Source: Nitrosopumilaceae archaeon
Lineage (GTDB): Archaea > Thermoproteota > Nitrososphaeria > Nitrososphaerales > Nitrosopumilaceae
Assembly (NCBI GenBank): GCA_965214835.1
Contig: CBDCCK010000002.1
Location: forward strand, 1,888,001 to 1,952,000
Direction: 5' to 3'
DNA: 64,000 nt
A program made the translations under genes and the position numbers. This document shows, in pieces, positions 20,240 through 54,412 of this stretch (position 1 is its first letter; each line of letters opens with the position of its first letter). The notes beneath the pieces were generated by a model, which was not told the origin of the DNA, did not search any database, and saw only the letters and a list, made by a program, of their open reading frames with translations.

Positions 20240-20985
20240 TGTCTGAAAGCATTGCTTTAAGATTAGAAAATGTTTCAAAAACATTTCGTATTCGATCAAA
20301 TAAAGACAGTACACTGTTTGAATTTTTAACCTCTTTTTGGAAAAATAATGTTGATGAAGAATTGAAAGTTTTACAAAATATCAACCTAACTATTCACAAG
20401 GGTGAGACATTAGGAATATTGGGTCTTAACGGAGCTGGAAAAAGCACACTATTAAAAATTTTAGCACAAATCTACGCTCCTGACTCTGGAACATTGCACG
20501 TTAATGGGAAATTAACCCCTTTCTTGGATCTAGGTACTGGATTTAATGGAGAGCTTTCTGCACGAGAAAATGTTTATGTTTATGGCATATTGTTAGGATT
20601 ATCAAAGAAACAAATTACTGATAAAATAGGTGACATTTTTGAGTATGCAGAACTTGAAAAATTCAAAAACACAAAATTGAAGAATTTTTCTTCTGGCATG
20701 GTGGCAAGATTGGCATTTTCGACAGCTATTACCGTTGATCCTGATGTCCTGTTGGTTGACGAAGTTCTGGCAGTCGGCGATGCACTATTTCGCCAAAAAA
20801 GCTACAAAGCATTTTTAGACTTTAAACAGAAAAACAAAACAATAATTATTGTCTCTCACTCAGTAACCCAAATTCAAGATCTGTGTGACCGAGCAATACT
20901 ACTTTTCAACGGAAAAATTATTTCTGACGGTGTTCCTGATGTTGTTGCTAAAGAATATGCAAAACTAATTGACACTAAATCGTAA
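20239..20985 (+). CDS. wzt: Polysaccharide ABC exporter ATPase without a C-terminal binding domain
   Basis: GLNGAGKST, FSSGMVARLAFS, LLVDEVLAVGD; 248 aa. Confidence 0.93.
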   Translation: MSESIALRLENVSKTFRIRSNKDSTLFEFLTSFWKNNVDEELKVLQNINLTIHKGETLGILGLNGAGKSTLLKILAQIYAPDSGTLHVNGKLTPFLDLGTGFNGELSARENVYVYGILLGLSKKQITDKIGDIFEYAELEKFKNTKLKNFSSGMVARLAFSTAITVDPDVLLVDEVLAVGDALFRQKSYKAFLDFKQKNKTIIIVSHSVTQIQDLCDRAILLFNGKIISDGVPDVVAKEYAKLIDTKS

Positions 20986-21045
20986 TTACGTTGTTGCGTT
21001 TTAACCACGGGTGTGAGGTCACGTAGTATTCACGGCTACCGTATG

Positions 21046-21247
21046 AGACGTTATATCAAACCTTATCTGTAGCGGACGCCATATTATCCGTGTTGGGCCC
21101 AAGAGCCCAAGTAAACTTGCCACATATGAGGGCGTGTAAGAGACTGGCTCAGAGTAGGCGGACAACGAAATGCCACATCATCGAGGGCGAATGGGAGTTT
21201 TCCGTTCAGTTGGGCACACACACTTTGATCAACATGGAGGTGATATC
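21046..21247 (+). ncRNA. Candidate IS110 bridge RNA (variant 2) ahead of a truncated transposase start
   Basis: Two stem/internal-loop/stem modules; followed by GGAGGTGA and MINIGIDVHKKT; loop GTAAGAGA matches its junctions. Confidence 0.7.
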
Positions 21248-21551
21248 ATGATCAACATAGGAATAGACGTTCATAAGAAGACATGTATGGTAACCATCAA
21301 AGAGTAAGAGACGTTATATCAAACCTTATCTGTAGCTAGTTTGTTGCATAACCCTTCCTAAAATTTGAAATCTGACCGAAAATCACCAAAATGATCAACT
21401 AATCCTTACCGAAAAAGTAATGGATCATGAGGATGCCTCGTATGGTATACATTGACACAAACAGACAATGCAAAGTACGTAAAGAGGGGGGCAGGCCTAT
21501 ACTGACGATCATTGAAAATTTCGCCTGATTACACGTCTTGTGAAGGTTTAT

Positions 21552-21747
21552 AGACGCTATATGAAATCTTATCTGTATCCTGTGATATACAATTACCGTT
21601 GGGCCTGAGAGTCGATGTGATCTTACCATGTACAAGGGTGTTTTATAGACTGACTCGTAACAGCAGGCGGAAAGCAATATACCGCGCAGACGGTGAATGG
21701 GAGATTCCGCCCGGATCAGGCATTTTGATCAAAAAGGAGGTGATAAC
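21552..21747 (+). ncRNA. Candidate IS110 bridge RNA (variant 1)
   Basis: Stems GAGTC/GACTC and GGCGGAA/TTCCGCC enclose loops TTTATAGA and ATGGGAGA that equal the left and right junctions. Confidence 0.75.
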
Positions 21748-21958
21748 ATGATCAACTCGGCCACAGCAGTACGAAACGACTCAAGACTTGGTTCTATATA
21801 TGAAAGGATAAGAAAGAGACGAGGATGGCAAAAGGCAAAGATTGTAGTTGCAAGGCACATGCTGGAGATAATCTGGCACATGCTGACCACCGGGGAGGAG
21901 TACCGCACTCAGAGCAAGACTCTCACGCAGAGAAAGTATAAGAGAATGCATCGCATAG

Positions 21959-23211
21959 TGATCTGGACCCCGTATTTTCGAACCACTTTTTGGGCGTTTT
22001 TGCGTAGCTCTGGCATCATCATTTGCCTGCCTCCCTTTGGTGCCGTACGACGAACTCCATCGGAGTGAGATATCCAAGTGAGGAGTGTATTCTGTCATGG
22101 TTATAGTCCCTAAATGCCTCCCTTATGACGTCTGAGGCGTCCTGGAAGGAGTCAAATTCATGGGGCCACAGGTATTCCCTCTTGATGCTTCCGTGAAACG
22201 ACTCTATGTGGCCGTTTTGTTCTGGCGTCCTGTATGCTATGAGCTCGTGTCTTATTCCCAGCTGTTTCAGGGACTCCCTGAACATGCGCGACGTATACTG
22301 AGAACCGTTGTCTGTCCGCAGGGTCAGCATGCTGCAGTCCGGATCTGCTGCCGATACCGCATCGAGTACGGCCTGAACCGCATTCTCCTTTTGCGCCGTG
22401 GTATCAAAGGAGTATGCAAGCCACCTGCGCGAAAAGGCATCAAGTACGTTGAAACAGTAGCACCAGCCGTCCCCGCCGCAGTCCACGTATGTGATGTCTG
22501 CCTGCCACAGCCGGTTGGGGGCATCTGGCCTTGTAAGCTTGCGCGAGGCCCGTATTATGTCGTTTTTGGTCTTTTTGGGCTCGATCCAGCCTATCTGGCG
22601 GTAGATTCGCTGTATCTTTTTGCGGTTTACGCGCACGCCAGTCTCGCGCAATATCTGGTTTGCCATCCTCCGGGTTCCGTACGTCGGCCTTTTCTTGCCT
22701 ATGGTACGTATGATTGAGACCGTCCCGGGGTCGGCTTTTCTGGCTCGTCTGTCGGCGTCCTTCCTGGCGTAATACCAGGTGCCCTTTGAGACGCCGCAGT
22801 ATTCCAGGGCTGTATTGAGGCTCATCTTCTGGTGGCAGATCTGTACGGCATTCATCCTTTGCTCAGCTCCATTGTTTTTTTTAAAGCGTCACAGGCCACT
22901 GCATACTCGCCTATGATGCGTTTGAGATTCTGGTTCTCCTTTTGCAGGGCAGCCGCTGCCTTGTCATTCCGGCCCAGGATGGATGCCTTGCCGCCCTCGA
23001 CGAACCTGTCCATCCACCTGCCAAACGTGGTGGGCGCGATGTTGTGCTTGCGGCACAGCTCGGCAGTGCTGATGCTGGTCTTGATGGACTCCATCACTAT
23101 GTCTGTTTTTTCGGCCAATGTGAACTTTTGTTTTTTCATGCCCCGTATGCCCTCCTGTCACATACAAATTCTACGCATTTGGGTGGTTCGAATTTTATGG
23201 GGTCCTCACCA
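21959..23211 (-). mobile_element. IS3-family element (orfA 22852..23139, orfB 22019..22855)
   Basis: TG..CA inverted ends; TSD ATAG; WQADIT, RTDNGSQY, PEQNGHIESF; same as 41341..42593. Confidence 0.95.
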
Positions 23212-25497
23212 ATAGCAACATTGTCCTGATTCGGAACATCACGCTGGCAAGGGTCCACGGTAGGATTAGGTACGATTTCATATGGGAGATCTCCGCCATG
23301 GCCATTCTGACATGAACAAGACGAAAATCCTCACGGATGCCATGCGTGTGGAAAAGGATACCAGGATTCACACCAGAATTCTGGCGGTGCGCTCCGTACT
23401 GCTTGGCAACACCACTGCACAGACCGCAGAGATTGCCGACGTGACACAGCGTACCATACAGATGTGGGTCGAGAGGTTTGAGCTTGACGGCGTTGACGGT
23501 CTCCGTGACTCCCCCAACAGGGGCAAAAAGCCAAAGGTTCCAATCAACAGAATAAAAAAGATCGCCATGAGGCTGCGCAGGATGGAAAAGCTCACCCCAA
23601 AGAAGATGCGCAACTGGGTGCGCCGCAAACTGCATGTAACATACAGCGTTGGAAGCATCAGAAGAATCCTGCGCACGATGGGATTCTCGCTAAAGACGTC
23701 AACTACCAAGCTGGCAAATGCTGCCGACGCAAAGGAGGTAAGACGGTGGCAAAGGGAGGCAAAAGACACGATTAGGCTTGCAAAAAGGCGCGGATTCAGG
23801 ATAACCGTACAGGACGAGTCGATATTCGTCAGTACGGGAAGGGACGGCAAAAAGTTCTGGTCGCCAGTGGGGGACAGAATCGAGGTGCAACGATCCGGCA
23901 GAAGGGAGCGCGTCGTGGTATACGGAACGGTTGCAGACGACGGAACCAGGCTGATGCGTACATACGACAAGTTCAACAGCATAAACTTTGTGCGTTATCT
24001 CAAGCAGGCGCGCAAAAAGTGGGGAAAGGTTCTGATTGTGATGGACAACGCAGCACAGCATAGGACCGGAAGGGTCCGCATGTACCTGGAGAAAAATCCC
24101 GACGTTATCCTGCTGTACCTGCCAGTAGCCAGGCCGGAGCTGAGCGCCATAGAGCCAATCTGGAAGGATGCCAAGTACATACTGGTCACATCTGCCTTTT
24201 ACGATTCGGCAGATCACCTCAAAAGGGATGTCTCGGAATACTTTAGGACGTGTTCCATCAAGGTTGACATCTACAAATATCTTGAGCGCCGCGTGTAATC
24301 AGGCGAAATTTTCAATGATCGTCAGTATAGTCGTCAAGTACAACCCGGAATGGGAGAAGGATCTCAAGGATGCCAACCGTCACAAGGAGGGCGCCCCGTT
24401 CCTGTATGCAGAAGGCATGATAATGGCCGCAGCAGCCCTTAGGACTGCATTAATGATGAAGTACAGACAGCTGTCAGGCATGCTCGGGGAGATGCTAAAG
24501 GGCGCGGACTCGCCGTGTTACACCACGATATTCAGGAGAATACAAAAGCTTGACGTCGACATTGCAGAGCACGTAATCACGGTGCGCGACAAGACCCGTA
24601 ACCTGGTCATGATAGCCGATGCCACTGGCCTCAAGCAGCACAACCGAGGCGAGTGGATATGCAAAAAATGGAAGGTAAGGCGCAGATTTGTCAAGATGCA
24701 CCTGATGGTCGACGCAGACACCAAGCAGGTGCTGGCAGTATCTGTCACAAGTGATGCAGTCGGCGACAGCACGGAACTGCCTATACTGCTTGAGGAGGTG
24801 ACCAAGAACACCAAGGAAGAGGAGCAGCAGCAGGAACGCACCGACGACGCAGATGCAGTCAAGATTCCCAACATGCTTGCAGACGGGATCTCACCGATGA
24901 CCCTGCTTGACACCGGCGCGAATCCTGATACGCCGGGAAAGATCCTGCTTGCAGATGGCGCATACGGCTCAAGGAAGAACGTAGCCGAGTGCCACAAGCG
25001 CGGCATAAAACCACTCATACGGCTCTTGACAAGCTGTACTGCAAAGGGCAAGGGCACCGGCGACAAGTGGGGCATGCTTGTACGGTGGCAGCTTGGGGGC
25101 GGCCCCGAGGTGCCGGTGGGTGATCTCTCAAAGGAGGAAAGACAGGAGAACCTGCGGTACTGGAAGAGCACGGTCGGCTTCGGCAGCAGGTGGATAGTCG
25201 AGATCGTGATATCGTCCATAAAGCGCATGTTCGGCGAGGGCGTAATGGCCCTCAAGTGGTCCAATGTGGTGCAGGAGGTAAAGCTGAGGATATGGCTGTA
25301 CAACAAGTGGATCGCAGAGGCGGTGGCTGCCATGTAGGAACCTGGTGCCTGTAGTGATCCGGACGGAACGACTTGGCTCTAGTCGGAGTTATGCAACAAA
25401 CTAGATGTTGTACCATATTCCGGCCAGTATTGTGCAGGTAGCGGGATTAGCACCTAGGTGTGTCAATTACGCATAAAGTCTAATATAATTATCGTCC

Positions 25498-28902: not shown

Positions 28903-29099
28903 AACCCATCTGTTTTTTAGAACTTTACGAAATAGATGCCTGTTATTTTTTCCTTGATCAAAGAATCGGGAGACTGCAGATGCGTCTGTGATCGTATGAG
29001 TTTACCCCGTCTCGAGGAATACGGCGCGGTAGGCACGATCATAAAGATCCCGGCCAGTCCTGTCGCCTGAGGGGTAAACTCGTACAGACGTATCTACTA

Positions 29100-29670
29100 G
29101 ACATTCCATCATTTTATACTTTCTTTGCATGAGTTCATTGTTCTGCGTGTGGTATTCTGTTTCATAGGTCAACATGTGCCAGATCACCTTTGCAGGCGTT
29201 CTGGCCACGACTACCTTGGTCTTGACATGATGCGCCAGATGCACGTCTATTTGCACATCCTTAAGCATGTCATGCAGCAGAATCCAGTTCCCCGTAGCCT
29301 CGCAGACTGCACAAATCTTGCGTTCTGCATATCCCTAGCTGATCTGTCCTGCAAATTTTTTATCCCGTAGGTTGTGTTGGAAAACTCCGCCTGGTCCAGA
29401 ATCCCTGCAGTCTGGTCCTTGATGACTGCTACGTACGTCCTTTTATGGGCGTCTATTCCTACGTTGATCATGTTATCACCTCCTTTCTGATCAAAATGCC
29501 TGATCCGGGCGGAATCTCCCATTCACCGTCTTCTGCGCGGTACATTGCTTTCCGCCTGCTGTTACGAGTCAGTCTATAAAACACCCTTGTACATGGTAAG
29601 TTCCGATCGACTCTCAGGCCCAACAGTAATGGCATATCACAGGATACAGATAAGATTTCATATAGCGTCT
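29100..29670 (-). mobile_element. Degenerate IS110 with a variant-1 non-coding leader (29472..29670)
   Basis: MINVGIDAHKRT start at 29471; frameshifted and internally deleted; leader near-identical to 21552..21747. Confidence 0.8.
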
Positions 29671-29673
29671 ACT

Positions 29674-29800
29674 GAGAATAGGAACACTTTTTTTTCGCAC
29701 ACTTTTTGAGTCAGGAGGCCGAGTCACAAATATGACCAAGAAAGCATGGAGTACGCAGGACAAGATAGAGATAGTCATGGAGCACATCAACACCAATAAG
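29674..29800 (+). pseudogene. IS3 orfA 5' fragment
   Basis: MTKKAWSTQDKIEIVMEHINTN matches orfA at 35464 and 50679. Confidence 0.8.
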
Positions 29801-29914
29801 GACGCGCACACGAGTCACCTCATGGATCCCGGCGGGGCAGACGGGCAGCAAAAGGCAAGGCCGGCAAGGCGCCTGTCTGGATTCGGGGCAGCTGCCAGGT
29901 ACTGCGGCTCTAAG

Positions 29915-30907
29915 ATGTCCAAGTTCGGTGGGGCCCTATACGCATCTTGCACGGCAAAGGACAGGATCAGGGTCGCCTTTATCTACAAGCCGTCTTGGAG
30001 ATACTATGACCGAAACAACTCCATCAACAACAGGTACTATTTCTTTTTTCAGGCGCTACGGAGAAACAGGAACCTCCAGATGGGCTATTTTCCCGCAGAG
30101 CATACGTTTGATACGGCAAAGCTCAGGGGAAAGTACGATGTCATACTGTGTACGAACAGCGAGATCAGCACGCCGCAGCTAAACGGCGCCCGGGATCTGG
30201 GCATCCCGGTGATTGCCCACACGCACGACCCACACCACATCAAAACGTTTGATCTAGTCGGCTTTCATGAAAAGTACGGGGTGGACTATTACTTTAACTT
30301 CATACCTGCCAGTTATTTTTACAAGTACCTTCCAAGGGACTTTGGGTACAGGATGATAACTTATGGTGTCGAGCCAGATCTGCCACATCTGCCCGCATTC
30401 GCAGACCGGATAAGGGATCGCATTCTGCTTACGGGGACGCTCTGGAAGGGGAACGCAAACGACCCTGTCCAAAACCCCTATACGCTGAGGAGGACGTGCA
30501 GGGATCTGCCGTACGTCGACTATGCCGGGGTCGTGCCAGGCACCATCCAGTACGTGCACGCAGGACATCCGGACTTTATAACACACCTGTCACGGTACAG
30601 GGCAACCATAACCGCAACGAGGTACTTTCCTACCATCAAGTACTACGAGTCCACGGCTGCCGGATGCCTGACGTTCATGGAGTTCTCAGAGGAAAGCCAC
30701 GGCGGGTACCTAGGATTCCGGGACGGGGAGAGCGCAGTGTTTATCGACTCTAAAAACTACAAAAAAAGGTTCGAGGAATACTTGGCCTCTCCAGATGATC
30801 CAAAGTGGGCGCAAATAGCGGCGCGCGGAAAAAGACACACCATGGAGAACCTCACAAACGACAAGGCGGCCGAGTCCCTTGTGGACCTGATGCGGGAGCT
30901 GATCTGA
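29915..30907 (+). CDS. GT-B glycosyltransferase (Glyco_trans_1_2/CgeB-like C-terminus); start uncertain
   Basis: KYYESTAAGCL, LGFRDGESAVF, QIAARGKRHT; the ORF-track N-terminus is IS3-derived. Confidence 0.75.
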   Translation: MSKFGGALYASCTAKDRIRVAFIYKPSWRYYDRNNSINNRYYFFFQALRRNRNLQMGYFPAEHTFDTAKLRGKYDVILCTNSEISTPQLNGARDLGIPVIAHTHDPHHIKTFDLVGFHEKYGVDYYFNFIPASYFYKYLPRDFGYRMITYGVEPDLPHLPAFADRIRDRILLTGTLWKGNANDPVQNPYTLRRTCRDLPYVDYAGVVPGTIQYVHAGHPDFITHLSRYRATITATRYFPTIKYYESTAAGCLTFMEFSEESHGGYLGFRDGESAVFIDSKNYKKRFEEYLASPDDPKWAQIAARGKRHTMENLTNDKAAESLVDLMRELI

Positions 30908-40366: not shown

Positions 40367-40603
40367 GAATATTGTGAGAAAAGGATTCATGACAGAATAG
40401 GGCAAAAAAATTGGAAGATGGGTTTTACTGCAAATATTTGTCACGAGGATCCAAGAGACGTTCCCATGCTTCAGGTTGCGGATTACATAGCAAGTGCAAC
40501 CCAGGGATTCATTGTTCACGGCGATGCGACGTTTTACAACGCGTACAGTAACAAATTGAGCTATCGTGAAAAATTGGACAGCAACGATAAGATAAGATGG
40601 TGA
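40367..40603 (+). pseudogene. C-terminal fragment of a DUF3800-like gene
   Basis: PMLQVADYIA motif; 5' part lost at MITE E. Confidence 0.5.
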
Positions 40604-40921
40604 CTCTCGACCTACTTCTTCCAGCCTGTCCGAACAGACGTCATCGTTTCGGTCAAGATCCTATTGATTGTTCAATAGACTTTACCCACCTGTTTGATAT
40701 TCTCATGTCTGATATTAAAAGTATAAGCATGAGCAGTCTTGCACAGCCCTGATTTCAGGCTGTAGTATACGAAAAGTCGGTCCGCTAGTCATCTGCGTCC
40801 CTCTCCATCCATTTTGGATCCTTCCTCCTGATCGCATCGGTGGCCTCCTTGCTCCCAAACGCCTGAAGCGACGTCTCACAGCTGGTAATGTCAAGCGAAA
40901 AGTGGGGACCTTCTCTCGTTG

Positions 40922-52965: not shown

Positions 52966-54412
52966 TCCATGGTAAAACGCCCGCCAGTAACATGGCGACG
53001 TTCCTTTCGTCTTCTGATCCGTGCCTAGTCGGCCGGGCCGTGCTTTATAGCTAACGCTAGCAATACGCACGAGCCAGTCCTGTCGCACCTGCCAGGGTGC
53101 GGGCGGATCATTGGGTGGGTGGGTGGGGGATGGAAGGTGGTAATCCTATGCCGTTCCCGCCAGTTCTGTCACCCTCTTGATCTTCTTGTCGTACAGGACA
53201 GCATTGCGCGATGAATACACAGTCTTTGTCGTCAGCATGTGCCAGATTATCCTGAGCATCTTGTTTGCAACATGCGTTATCGCTATGACGTGGTTGTTGC
53301 CGTTCCTTTTGCGGACCCTCTCGTAGAACTCCCTCATCCTGTCGTCGTGCTGTACGGCGACGTTGGCTATCTGGATCATCAGCCAGTTGATCCTGCGGTT
53401 TGCATCCTTTTTCATGTGGCCGTGGTACTCGCGTTCCCCCGACTGGTACACCCGGGGACACATGCCGGCCCAGGACACAAGCTGGTTCGGCGATGGAAAC
53501 CTGGCTATGTCACCGATCTCTGCTATCAGCAGCATTGCTGCAAAGGTGTCTATTCCCGTCATGCTCAACAGCAGCTTGGCATCCTCGTTCGATCCTGCCT
53601 GTCTTCCTATGTCCTCCCCTGCCTGGCCTATCTCCTCTGTGACGTGTACAATCCTCCTAGTGCAGCTTGCCAGTATCCTGTCATCGTTTGGCATGTTCAG
53701 CCTGGTATCGGAGATCTTCCGTATGGCCTTCTTGGAGTACATCGTGGATGCATCTATGGCTATATCGTACTTGTCAAGCCAAGCTGTGCAGCCCGTTTAT
53801 GACTGCGGTCCTCTCCTGCACCATCCGTATCCTGTACCTCATCAGCTCCCTGACATCCCTCAGCTCTGCTGATGCCACGTAGCATCGTGGTATCATTCCG
53901 GCCCTGAGCGTTTCGGCTATCTTCCTTGCATCTATCGGGTCAGTCTTTACGCTGGTCTCTGATACTATCTTCATCTTGAGGGTGTTTGCAAGCAGTATGG
54001 GGATATGCTGATCCTCAAACGCCCTGAACGTCTTTAGCCACATGTTGCCCGTTGACTCGCACGCGGCCTGGCACTTTTTGTACTCTTTTTTCAGTCGTGC
54101 AGCAAGCTTTGATGCCTCCTTGTACGTGTTGTTATACGAGCCCTCCTCTAGCACGTGTCCCTTGGCGTCGATGACGCACACTGCGCATTTTCTCTTTCCA
54201 ATGTCTATTCCTATGCTTCTCAATCCTTTTCTTTCACCTCCTTTCGGATATGGTTTGACAGATCAGAAGCTGCATTCATCCATCAGTGCGCGTAGCACAG
54301 GAACACAGCAGCTCGGATATCCCCATTCAACAGGTAGTGCGCGAAGCACATGCATAACGAGGGGTTGATCCATCACCCTGGCTACGGCGGGGGCGTTTTT
54401 ATCATGTGTTCA
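52964..54412 (-). mobile_element. IS110-family element, transposase 53146..54223 with one frameshift (~53780); CA core at both junctions
   Basis: IGIDIGK, ACESTG, KTDPIDA, GIDTFAA, WAGMCPRVYQSG. Confidence 0.9.
54262..54385 (-). ncRNA. Candidate IS110 bridge RNA
   Basis: Two internal loops closed by twin GTGCT(T/A)CGCGCAC hairpins; four loop strands match target and donor halves. Confidence 0.82.

What the first reader, a model, noticed from the sequence alone, without database searches (positions are those of the whole stretch)
21041..23295. Natural reprogramming: related IS110 leaders whose guides co-vary with their insertion sites
Seen: variants 1 (21552, 29670) and 2 (21046) share a scaffold with compensatory stem changes (GAGTC/GACTC vs GAGCC/GGCTC; TACC/GGTG vs TGCC/GGCG). 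The variant 1 loop TTTATAGA (21642) equals its left junction (21547), and ATGGGAGA (21697) equals its right junction (23282). The variant 2 loop GTAAGAGA (21136) matches junctions GTAAGAGA (21304) and GTATGAGA (21041, 7/8). The remaining donor strand tracks the left end weakly (AGC vs AACG). The two variant-1 copies differ in the other target strand (GTGATCT vs CGGAACT). Inference: these are retargeted bridge RNAs carried by non-autonomous mini-IS110s. Caveat: the 29670 junction matches poorly and abuts an IS3 fragment.
Basis: partly seen in the sequence, partly recalled or inferred. Interest (0 to 1): 0.72.

Follow-up and report, generated by a model that had tools for sequence, protein, structure and literature searches.

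The report
Decayed bridge-RNA insertion sequences, archaeal genome
The region holds broken copies of an RNA-guided jumping gene (IS110 family) of an ammonia-oxidising archaeon, whose small guide RNA genes spell out the DNA sites they sit in; this mechanism has been known since 2024, so the finding is real but largely ordinary.

Summary
Windows 21047-21206 and 21553-21711, and 29508-29669 on the minus strand, are three copies of one structured leader. It has two stem/internal-loop modules: 18 pairs, 98.1% paired, 5 pairs with compensatory changes.

The 3' strand of loop 1 repeats the left flank plus an AG core. The 5' strand is the reverse complement of AG plus the right flank. Loop 2 matches the element's own right and left ends.

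A covariance model found 22 hits in this genome and hits in 19 of 151 related genomes. Of 64 evaluable copies, 27 match their left flank 7/7 and 16 match 6/7, using 17 different guides. No shuffle out of 100,000 reached the observed agreement. Empty target sites exist in the genome.

This is the known bridge RNA/seekRNA mechanism with natural retargeting. The "mini-IS" part is only partly supported: the copies are unique deletion remnants, nested with an IS3, an IS630-like element and MITEs, and only one intact transposase remains (C2:311759-312853).

One twist: the RNA is encoded upstream of the transposase, as in IS110-type elements. Its guide order, 8-12-bp subterminal repeats and core strand follow the IS1111 type.

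The parts
21041..21047 (+). Left target (GTATG) plus core AG of the variant-2 remnant
   Evidence: sequence. The flank class GTATG-AG recurs at 7 left ends in the genome. It differs by 1 nt from this copy's own guide GTAAGAG.
21047..21206 (+). Variant-2 bridge RNA gene (left end, target-binding module, donor-binding module)
   Evidence: Covariance model R1 hit at C2:1909047-1909206, 172.1 bits. All four helices are intact.
21111..21117 (+). Variant-2 guide on the 5' strand of loop 1 (GTAAACT). [quoted passage not shown]
   Evidence: In the intact copy, the same guide sits beside the right flank AG|TTTACCCC.
21136..21144 (+). Variant-2 guide on the 3' strand of loop 1. GTAAG+AG equals the left target plus core; the following AC equals the first two bases of the element (handshake-like).
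   Evidence: The match is 7/7 in copies C2:313052 and 848125. The empty site GTAAGAGTTTAC occurs 45 times in the genome.
21163..21170 (+). Variant-2 5' strand of loop 2 (CAACGAAA). AACG is complementary to element start bases CGTT.
   Evidence: It covaries with the left end across lineages: AGC/GCT, AACG/CGTT, GGGT/ACCC, TAGTG/CACTA, TGGCA/TGCCA vs TAGCA/TGCTA.
21191..21197 (+). Variant-2 3' strand of loop 2 (ATGGGAG), equal to the right end plus core
   Evidence: Right ends read ...TTTGATATGGG+AG.
21248..21303 (+). First ~19 codons of the transposase (MINIGIDVHKK...), then truncated
   Evidence: compared with the intact 365-aa protein P0001.
21304..21336 (+). Second left junction: target GTAAG+AG plus the first 26 nt of a variant-2 left end. 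It is cut off by the next repeat.
   Evidence: The same left-end fragment followed by TAGTTTGTTG occurs at C2:639953.
21337..21499 (+). ~163-bp repeated element (MITE-like), unrelated to the IS110 leader
   Evidence: 10 further BLAST matches in the genome at 74.5-99% identity (9 of them at 83% or more).
21496..21551 (+). Left terminal repeat of an IS630-like element. It ends in the variant-1 left target TTTAT.
   Evidence: More than 40 copies of this ~58-bp end. The uninterrupted form ...GAAGGTTTATAGATCTCCATCCATGGCC... lies at C2:958830 and 962904.
21552..23288 (+). Variant-1 IS110-family element with both core AG copies (21552-21553 and 23287-23288). The element proper is 21554-23286.
   Evidence: Ends are defined by comparison with other copies and with the empty site TTTAT-AG-ATCTCC. 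Contigs of 4 runs join 21551 to 23287; these probably come from uninterrupted paralogues.
21553..21711 (+). Variant-1 bridge RNA gene
   Evidence: R1 hit at C2:1909553-1909711, 151.8 bits. The single-sequence centroid fold shows both two-stem modules.
21619..21623 (+). Variant-1 5' strand guide of loop 1 (GATCT), the reverse complement of AG+ATC
   Evidence: The right flank is AG|ATCTCCGCC.
21642..21650 (+). Variant-1 3' strand guide of loop 1 (TTTAT+AG, then AC)
   Evidence: 7/7 identical to the left junction at 21547-21553.
21697..21703 (+). Variant-1 donor guide ATGGGAG, equal to the right end plus core (23282-23288)
21748..21958 (+). Transposase remnant: codons 1-3 fused in frame to roughly the last 65 codons
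   Evidence: compared with P0001.
21956..23212 (-). IS3-family element inserted into the variant-1 copy (orfA 23139-22852, orfB 22855-22019), with a 3-bp duplication TAG
   Evidence: Pfam HTH_Tnp_1 49.2 bits, rve 81.1 bits. Contigs of runs X1, X4, X6 and X7 lack it, with joints 21954-21959 to 23212-23217 that skip 1257 bases. The paralogue at C2:1633 kb also lacks it.
23276..23283 (+). Right subterminal inverted repeat TTTCATAT. Its partner ATATGAAA lies at 21559-21566.
   Evidence: It covaries with the left repeat across lineages: TTTGATAT/ATATCAAA in variant 2, ATTTTTCATAT/ATATGAAAAAT in G004, AACACAT/ATGTGTT in G010 and G090.
23282..24298 (+). Transposase ORF of the IS630-like element that the variant-1 copy interrupted
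   Evidence: Pfam DDE_3 73.4 bits plus HTH domains.
29085..29670 (-). Third leader copy (variant 1). The bridge RNA gene is at 29508-29669. The transposase has an internal deletion, and the right end is replaced by an 87-bp MITE.
   Evidence: R1 hit at C2:1917508-1917669, 142.9 bits; sequence. Guide TTTATAG vs flank TCAGTAG matches 4/7. The other guide GATCGGAACT predicts AG+TTCCGATC, and TCAGTAGTTCCGAT occurs 3 times as an empty site.

Best explanation
These are defective copies of a ~1.35-kb IS110-family insertion sequence of an ammonia-oxidising archaeon. The left end of the element encodes a bridge RNA (also called seekRNA) with two stem/internal-loop modules.

Module 1 reads the target. 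[quoted passage not shown] Module 2 reads the element's own joined ends. Its 3' strand equals the right end plus AG. Its 5' strand is a short, discontinuous complement of the left end.

By analogy with IS621 and ISEc11 (inferred, not tested here), a DEDD/serine recombinase bound to this RNA would exchange strands at the AG core between the circularised element and the target. Different sublineages carry different guides and sit in matching sites, mostly the terminal repeats of other mobile elements. Variant 2 sits in the GTAAG-AG-TTTAC end of an 87-bp MITE. Variant 1 sits at TTTAT-AG-ATCTC, 57 bp inside an IS630-like element.

The three window copies have lost their transposase by deletion, truncation and insertion of other elements. 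Their RNA genes are still intact.

Shown here: structure covariation, guide-flank and guide-end covariation, empty sites, and the transposase family. Inferred: transcription, RNA-protein complex, circular intermediate, and present-day activity.
For: Transposase. The intact family member P0001 (365 aa) hits PF01548 (90.2 bits) and PF02371 (87.4 bits). It also hits NF033542 'IS110 family RNA-guided transposase' at 243.9 bits against a cut-off of 140, and IS621 transposase 8wt6 at 55.7 bits.

Structure. 18 pairs are 98.1% paired, and 5 pairs have compensatory changes. 0 of 500 shuffles reach the covariation score. The U-G closing pairs are only possible on the transposase-sense strand.

Survey. 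Model R1 gives 22 hits in the own genome and hits in 19 of 151 genomes (G000 included) in the relatives search.

Left flank. Of 64 evaluable hits, 27 are identical in 7/7 positions and 16 in 6/7, with 17 distinct perfect guides. Taking one representative for each of the 41 guide classes, the mean over 6 flank positions is 3.95 against 1.77 in shuffles; 0 of 100,000 shuffles reach it. This still holds when the worst-matching member of each class is used (3.59 vs 1.76).

Right flank. For 13 unique pairs the mean is 6.0 of 8 against 4.1 in shuffles; 0 of 50,000 shuffles reach it.

Empty sites predicted by joining the two guides exist in the genome: GTAAGAGTTTAC 45 times, TTTATAGATCTC 2 times (in the IS630-like end context), CCTATAGTGAC 7 times, TCAGTAGTTCCG 3 times.

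Donor side. ATGGGAG is present in loop 2 and at the right ends. The 5' strand of loop 2 covaries with the left end, including a single-base G/A with C/T switch within genome G090.

Mechanism as published: PMC11208160 and PMC11208158 (passages read), PMC11187229 (sections 6 and 13 and passages read).
Against: There is no direct evidence that the RNA is made: no RNA run holds the stretch. No right-end/left-end circle junction was seen in the contigs laid.

Single-sequence folding energies are no better than shuffles (z -0.45 and -0.42). Rfam has no model that hits it.

Many copies do not match their flanks. 21 of 64 hits differ from the left flank in 2 or more of 7 positions; many of these are degraded fragments. 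In this genome, only 5 of 11 full-length leaders are perfect: 4 have one mismatch, 1 has two and 1 has three.

Within variant 2, the A/T guide difference does not track the flank cleanly. A-guides lie in A-sites in 2 of 5 copies, and T-guides in T-sites in 2 of 2.

Only one intact transposase of this family is left in the genome, so current activity is doubtful.
Confidence: 0.88

Rival explanations
1. The window copies are true non-autonomous mini-IS110 elements (ends plus guide RNA, no transposase) that have been mobilised in trans, each carrying its own retargeted guide.
For: The variant-1 copy keeps both ends, both subterminal repeats and an intact RNA gene. Without the IS3 insert it is only ~476 bp. 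One intact related transposase exists in the genome. Published work shows the RNA can act in trans and can move cargo flanked by ends (PMC11187229 abstract).
Against: No deletion derivative was found at two different sites. The variant-2 remnant has no right end. The 29670 copy has no right end. The only pair sharing a deletion has identical flanks, so it is a duplication. The variant-1 copy sits in a site that fits its own guides, which is equally expected if a full-length copy inserted there and then decayed.
Confidence: 0.12
2. Guide reservoir. The transposase-less remnants persist as trans-acting guide RNA genes. They would let the single intact transposase send elements to further sites, which would explain copies whose own guide differs from their flank.
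For: 13 near-full-length RNA genes stand against 1 intact transposase. Three variant-2 copies with guide GTAAGAG lie in GTATGAG sites, while other copies carry GTATGAG. G004 copy L041 (guide CCAACAG) lies in ATAGACAG, which is exactly the guide of G004 copy L100. The 29670 copy has a mismatched left guide.
Against: The same mismatches are explained by tolerance of 1-2 mismatches (PMC11208160, passage read). They are also explained by half-match recombination (10.64898/2026.08.31.748434, abstract read) or by gene conversion between copies after insertion. There is no expression data. My search started from the leader, so remnants that keep the leader are over-sampled.
Confidence: 0.25
3. The loop-flank identities are DNA-level features, such as transposase-binding repeats or duplicated junction sequence inside the left end, rather than RNA guides.
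For: The guide-coding DNA is by construction identical to the junctions. It appears to take part in DNA rearrangements: the junction TTTTATAG|ATTCCGCC at C2:1633343, and a tandem left-end duplication in G003 locus L020.
Against: The stems that frame the loops keep pairing through compensatory changes, and they use G-U pairs that exist on one strand only. One loop strand is sense and the other antisense to the target, meeting at the core. This is the published RNA-DNA pairing geometry and has no obvious meaning for a protein-binding repeat.
Confidence: 0.03

Closest known systems
IS621 / IS110-type bridge RNA elements (Durrant et al. 2024, PMC11208160; Hiraizumi et al. 2024, PMC11208158)
   Same: A DEDD+Tnp recombinase of the same Pfam/NCBIfam families. 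The RNA is encoded in the left end, upstream of the transposase. There are two pseudo-symmetric stem/internal-loop modules, one for the target and one for the donor. Each loop reads both DNA strands, overlapping at a 2-nt core, and a 2-nt extension matches the partner DNA (handshake-like). Targets lie in repeated elements.
   Different: Guide order is reversed. Here the top-strand-pairing guide is 5' and the bottom-strand-pairing guide is 3'; the papers state the opposite for IS621. The core reads AG on the transposase-sense strand, i.e. CT on the other strand, whereas IS621 has CT. Subterminal repeats are 8-12 bp against 2-3 bp. Protein similarity is low (55.7 bits). The host is an archaeon. 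The comparison with IS621 rests on the papers' text, not on an alignment of my own.
IS1111-type seekRNA elements (ISEc11, ISPa11, ISKpn4; Siddiquee et al. 2024, PMC11187229)
   Same: [quoted passage not shown] Subterminal inverted repeats are long, with short terminal extensions. 'Natural reprogramming' between relatives is described in that paper.
   Different: [quoted passage not shown] The paper lists a few exceptions with an upstream region (ISMtsp17), and ISHvo10 and ISAcp5 with long regions on both sides. The passages I read do not give the guide order for those. I did not test whether this transposase groups with IS1111.
ISPpu9 / ISPpu10 of Pseudomonas putida (PMC12288879; 10.64898/2026.03.19.712850; abstracts seen in search listings)
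   Same: IS110-family elements that insert into one repeated intergenic sequence. In ISPpu9 the RNA gene copies also occur apart from the transposase.
   Different: They are bacterial, and the ISPpu9 RNA gene lies downstream of the transposase. Here the targets are the ends of other transposable elements.

Membership tests
IS110 family (RNA-guided DEDD transposase elements, broad sense) | Transposase with a DEDD RuvC-like domain (PF01548) and a Tnp domain (PF02371) | tested here: met
   The intact family copy P0001 scores 90.2 and 87.4 bits and NF033542 243.9 bits against a cut-off of 140. The window copies themselves keep only fragments.
IS110 family (RNA-guided DEDD transposase elements, broad sense) | A non-coding end encodes a structured RNA with internal loops framed by conserved stems | tested here: met
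   4 helices, 98.1% paired, 5 compensatory pairs. The model finds 22 hits in the own genome and hits in 19 of 151 genomes.
IS110 family (RNA-guided DEDD transposase elements, broad sense) | One loop is complementary to both strands of the target, overlapping at a core dinucleotide | tested here: met
   Left: 27 of 64 perfect 7/7 and 16 of 64 with one mismatch; 0 of 100,000 shuffles. Right: 13 pairs, 0 of 50,000 shuffles. Joined-guide empty sites are present.
IS110 family (RNA-guided DEDD transposase elements, broad sense) | The other loop is complementary to the element's joined ends (donor) | tested here: met
   ATGGGAG is in loop 2 and at the right ends. The 5' strand covaries with the left end over 3-6 nt in each of the lineages compared (v1, v2, G003, G010, G090).
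IS110 family (RNA-guided DEDD transposase elements, broad sense) | The core is present once in the empty site and on both sides of the inserted element, with no other duplication | tested here: met
   TTTAT-AG-ATCTCC is uninterrupted at C2:958830 and 962904, against TTTAT-AG-[element]-AG-ATCTCC in the window.
IS110 family (RNA-guided DEDD transposase elements, broad sense) | A circular intermediate with abutted ends; RNA made and bound by the transposase | not testable with these tools
   No RNA run was listed. Only contigs were available, and they showed no right-end/left-end joint.
IS110-type subgroup (IS621, ISEc21) | RNA encoded upstream of the transposase | tested here: met
   The leader lies between the left end and the ATG in all copies.
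IS110-type subgroup (IS621, ISEc21) | The bottom-strand-pairing guide is 5' of the top-strand-pairing guide | tested here: not met
   Here the 5' strand is the reverse complement of core plus right flank, and the 3' strand equals left flank plus core. The IS621/ISEc21 order is taken from PMC11208160, PMC11208158 and PMC11187229 (passages read).
IS110-type subgroup (IS621, ISEc21) | No subterminal inverted repeats, or only 2-3 bp | tested here: not met
   There are 8-12-bp repeats that covary between lineages.
IS1111-type subgroup | Subterminal inverted repeats of 7-17 bp | tested here: met
   TTTGATAT/ATATCAAA, TTTCATAT/ATATGAAA, ATTTTTCATAT/ATATGAAAAAT.
IS1111-type subgroup | [quoted passage not shown] | tested here: met
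   definition from PMC11187229 (passages read).
IS1111-type subgroup | Long non-coding region downstream of the transposase | tested here: not met
   About 195 nt lie upstream and about 53 nt downstream in the intact copy. Exceptions with an upstream region are on record (PMC11187229, section 6).
IS1111-type subgroup | Transposase related over its full length to that of IS1111 | not tested
   No labelled IS1111 and IS110 reference set was at hand. The best plasmid hit is an archaeal IS110-family gene at 38% identity.
Non-autonomous mini-IS / MITE | Both ends present and no transposase | tested here: inconclusive
   Met by the variant-1 copy at 21554-23286. Not met by the variant-2 remnant or by the 29670 copy, which have no right end.
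Non-autonomous mini-IS / MITE | The same short form at several independent sites | tested here: not met
   0 found. The only shared deletion lies in a duplicated segment with identical flanks.

The most novel reading that the evidence does not exclude
This lineage of ammonia-oxidising archaea may be an undescribed intermediate between the IS110 and IS1111 types. Its bridge RNA is encoded upstream, but the donor site and both guide pairs have the opposite strand polarity to IS621: AG core on the sense strand, top-strand guide first, long covarying subterminal repeats. In addition, guide half-sites may be exchanged between copies. The 29670 copy combines the left guide of one sublineage with the right guide of another. 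Transposase-less remnants may also serve as a trans-acting guide library for the one surviving transposase.
Probability: 0.3. Interest if true: 0.55.

Novelty: new member of a known kind. Interest (0 to 1): 0.32.

Why it matters
It adds a well-resolved natural series of bridge RNAs from ammonia-oxidising archaea. There are at least 17 different left guides with perfectly matching sites across the 11 genomes (G000 and 10 relatives) whose hits were evaluated. I found no paper that links bridge RNAs with these archaea; those searches were not exhaustive.

The series gives ready-made data on guide length (5+2 nt on the left, 5-10 nt on the right), mismatch tolerance and handshake bases. It also shows that RNA position and guide polarity can be uncoupled, which bears on how IS110- and IS1111-type elements are related.

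For this genome, it explains a nest of insertions: an IS3 inside an IS110 inside an IS630-like element. It also shows mobile elements using each other's ends as landing sites. It does not reveal a new mechanism.

Tried and rejected
Rfam. At gathering thresholds over the whole window, there was no family for the leader. The only hit was DUF3800-X RNA at 40598-40691.

Thermodynamic folding of single sequences. The z-scores were -0.45 and -0.42 on the sense strand, and 0.72 and -0.74 on the antisense strand. These are not informative for RNAs with large internal loops. RNAalifold alone did not recover the outer donor stem, so I supplied the structure by hand and tested it.

Expression. No RNA holder was listed.

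Contigs of four runs laid on 20800-23600. They show the empty-site joint 21551>23287 and IS3-less joints. Both are explained by paralogous copies in the same genome. No right-end/left-end joint was seen, and contigs cannot show rare forms.

tblastn of the transposase against plasmids. The best hit is 38% identical (Halanaeroarchaeum). I fetched two enterobacterial hits with a long downstream gap as possible IS1111-type controls. I did not pursue them, because their ends would need a separate copy survey. Subgroup placement by phylogeny was therefore not done.

Single-base A/T covariation within variant 2. The counts are 2 of 5 and 2 of 2, too few for a test.

Right-end call for C2:1290485 (L053). 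It is doubtful but was kept in the count.

Rows dropped. In one search, 4 of 68 model hits had no evaluable loop or left end. In one search, hits without a recognisable right end within the fetched DNA were left out (14 kept, 13 unique). Locus L083 of the unpublished genome G102 was left out. Only the tally '19 of 151 genomes' includes G102.

Supplementary files of the papers were not seen; they may hold guide maps for IS1111-type elements with upstream RNA.

Full report
WHAT IS THERE

The window is G000:C2:1888001-1952000 of a 3.22-Mb genome. The genome carries an archaeal SSU rRNA (1452.6 bits) and archaeal AmoA (384.2 bits). The host is therefore an ammonia-oxidising archaeon.

BLAST and a covariance model show that the two leaders at 21047-21206 and 21553-21711, and the minus-strand one at 29508-29669, belong to one family. 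That family has 22 model hits in this genome, of which 13 are near full length.

The only intact copy is at C2:311703-313050, about 1.35 kb. It has ~195 nt of left end, a 365-aa ORF and ~53 nt of right end. The ORF is an IS110-family transposase: PF01548 and PF02371, NF033542 at 243.9 bits, and IS621 transposase as the best solved relative at 55.7 bits.

STRUCTURE

I aligned 15 leaders from four genomes and proposed a structure by hand: two modules, each an outer 5-bp stem, a large internal loop and an inner 4-bp stem.
- The structure is 98.1% paired.
- 5 of 18 pairs change on both sides, in 25 cells.
- 0 of 500 column shuffles reach the covariation score.
- Sliding the 3' partners by 1-3 columns drops pairing to 29-47%.

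The conserved U-G closing pairs fit only the transposase-sense strand. Single-sequence energies are not better than shuffles, so covariation carries the argument and stability does not.

GUIDES AND FLANKS

Model R1 hit 19 of 151 genomes (G000 included) in the relatives search (one of these, G102, is unpublished and was not used further). I fetched the hits with their flanks, aligned 68 of them to the model and read the loop strands and flanks in fixed register.

Left side. The 3' strand of loop 1 repeats the 5 nt left of the element plus AG. Of 64 evaluable hits, 27 are identical in 7/7 positions and 16 in 6/7, with 17 different perfect guides. With one representative for each of 41 guide classes, the mean identity over six flank positions is 3.95 against 1.77 in shuffled pairings; 0 of 100,000 shuffles reach it. 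This holds even when the worst-matching member of each class is used.

Right side. The 5' strand of loop 1 is the reverse complement of AG plus the right flank. For 13 unique pairs the mean is 6.0 of 8 against 4.1; 0 of 50,000 shuffles reach it. Examples are AGTTTAC, AGGTTAC, AGAATAG, GTTAATT and, with 9 of 10 matched, GGGTGAGATC.

Empty sites. Joining the two guides predicts the empty site, and these sites exist:
- GTAAGAGTTTAC, 45 times, in the terminal repeat of an 87-bp MITE.
- TTTATAGATCTC, 2 times, in exactly the IS630-like end context that flanks the window's variant-1 copy.
- CCTATAGTGAC, 7 times.
- TCAGTAGTTCCG, 3 times.

These fix the element ends and show that the core AG is single in the empty site and present on both sides of the insert.

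Donor side. Loop 2 reads the element itself. Its 3' strand, ATGGGAG, is the right end plus core. Its 5' strand covaries with the left end: AGC/GCT, AACG/CGTT, GGGT/ACCC, TAGTG/CACTA. Within G090 it switches between TGGCA/TGCCA and TAGCA/TGCTA.

The two bases after the left guide (AC in most lineages) equal the first bases of the element. The bases after ATGGGAG equal the start of the right flank in some lineages (v1 AT, v2 TT) and not in others (G003). This resembles the handshake guides described for IS621 (PMC11208158, passages read).

COMPARISON WITH WHAT IS KNOWN

This is the bridge RNA/seekRNA mechanism. Guide-target covariation across natural IS110 elements is how it was discovered (PMC11208160, passages read). 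'Natural reprogramming' between relatives is described in PMC11187229 (passages read).

One respect differs from the best-studied elements. The papers state that in IS621 and ISEc21 the RNA is upstream and the bottom-strand-pairing guide comes first, and that IS621 has a CT core and 2-3-bp subterminal repeats. In IS1111-type elements the RNA is downstream, the top-strand complement comes first and the subterminal repeats are 7-17 bp long.

Here the RNA is upstream, but the top-strand guide comes first. The core reads AG on the sense strand, which is CT on the other strand. The subterminal repeats are 8-12 bp and covary between lineages. The element is thus IS110-like in layout and IS1111-like in polarity.

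PMC11187229 (section 6) records a few IS1111 relatives with an upstream non-coding region (ISMtsp17), so there is precedent for the layout. I saw no statement about their guide order. I did not place the transposase phylogenetically, and the comparison with IS621 rests on the papers' wording.

THE 'MINI-IS' CLAIM

The window is a nest of mobile elements.
- 21048-21303: a variant-2 left end with an intact RNA gene and 19 transposase codons.
- 21304-21336: a second left junction, GTAAG-AG plus 26 nt of left end. It is cut by a 163-bp repeat (21337-21499; 10 further BLAST matches).
- 21496-21551: the left terminal repeat of an IS630-like element (more than 40 copies), whose transposase gene is 23282-24298 (DDE_3).
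- 21554-23286: the variant-1 IS110 copy, which split that element at TTTAT-AG-ATCTCC. Its transposase has an in-frame deletion that leaves codons 1-3 and about the last 65. It is itself split by an IS3-family element (~21956-23212).

The 29670 copy has an internal deletion, and its right end is replaced by an 87-bp MITE. Its twin at C2:1963222 has identical flanks, so it is a duplication.

I found no deletion form at two independent sites. The copies are defective, but mobilisation as mini-elements is not shown.

MISMATCHED COPIES

In this genome 5 of 11 full-length leaders match their left flank perfectly. Four have one mismatch, one has two and one has three.

The three-mismatch case is the 29670 copy. 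Its flank TCAGT-AG and its right guide (which predicts AG-TTCCGATC) together fit the empty-site class TCAGTAGTTCCGAT. Its left guide, however, is that of the TTTATAG sublineage. The copy is therefore chimeric. Three explanations are possible, and I cannot tell them apart:
- gene conversion after insertion;
- guidance in trans by another copy's RNA;
- insertion on a half match, as reported for IS621 (10.64898/2026.08.31.748434, abstract read).

VERDICT

The bridge-RNA reading is supported at about 0.88. The mini-IS reading is weak. The finding is a new member of a known kind, with a polarity and layout combination that deserves a phylogenetic check.

Noticed in passing
C2:311617-311703 (right flank of the intact copy); also window 28991-29081 (C2:1916991-1917081): An ~87-bp palindromic MITE-like repeat (GTAAGAGTTTACCCC ... 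GGGGTAAACTCTTAC) with more than 60 copies. Its terminal repeat is the landing site of variant 2, so each copy offers two sites.
   Followed up: partly
window 21496-21551 and 23289-24350; C2:958780-962954: An IS630-like element (DDE_3 transposase, ~58-bp terminal repeats, more than 40 ends in the genome). Variant 1 lands 57 bp inside its left end, just upstream of its transposase start.
   Followed up: partly
C2:1633330-1633350: The junction ...CTTTTATAG|ATTCCGCCCGG... joins a target-like left flank directly to the base after the ATGGGAG donor-guide coding DNA of a variant-1 leader. It looks as if the guide-coding DNA itself had served as a right-junction mimic in an excision-like deletion.
   Followed up: partly
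L020:1170-1300 (G003:C3, upstream of 937089): A tandem duplication of the segment from the left end to the left-guide coding DNA (flank ACCGGCAG | left end ... GGGTGACCGGCAG | full element). It is consistent with recombination between the left junction and the identical guide-coding 10-mer.
   Followed up: no
window 21336/21337; C2:639982; C2:1764944, 1863139, 2303966-2304079: Other repeats sit at fixed points inside IS110 left ends. A TAGTTTGTTG... element follows CTGTAGC in two variant-2 left ends. A 122-bp MITE (CAGTCTTCCCAGAAG...) follows left-end base ~31 in two variant-1 left ends and interrupts a third leader. This may be site-specific insertion into the IS110 left end.
   Followed up: partly
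window 53164-53589 (-) and about 10 further loci: About 216-aa ORFs matching only the C-terminal half of the IS110 transposase (33-35% identity), present in many copies. Their upstream repeat resembles the TAGTTTGTTG element above.
   Followed up: no
window 40598-40691 (-): Rfam DUF3800-X RNA, 49.5 bits against a gathering score of 38.2. It was the only Rfam hit in the window.
   Followed up: no
window 29732-30907 (+): A 391-aa ORF beside the 29670 copy. Its C-terminal part is glycosyltransferase-like (PF13524, 30.5 bits).
   Followed up: partly
C2:1916-1919 kb and 1961-1964 kb: A segmental duplication that carries the same defective IS110 copy with identical flanks.
   Followed up: no
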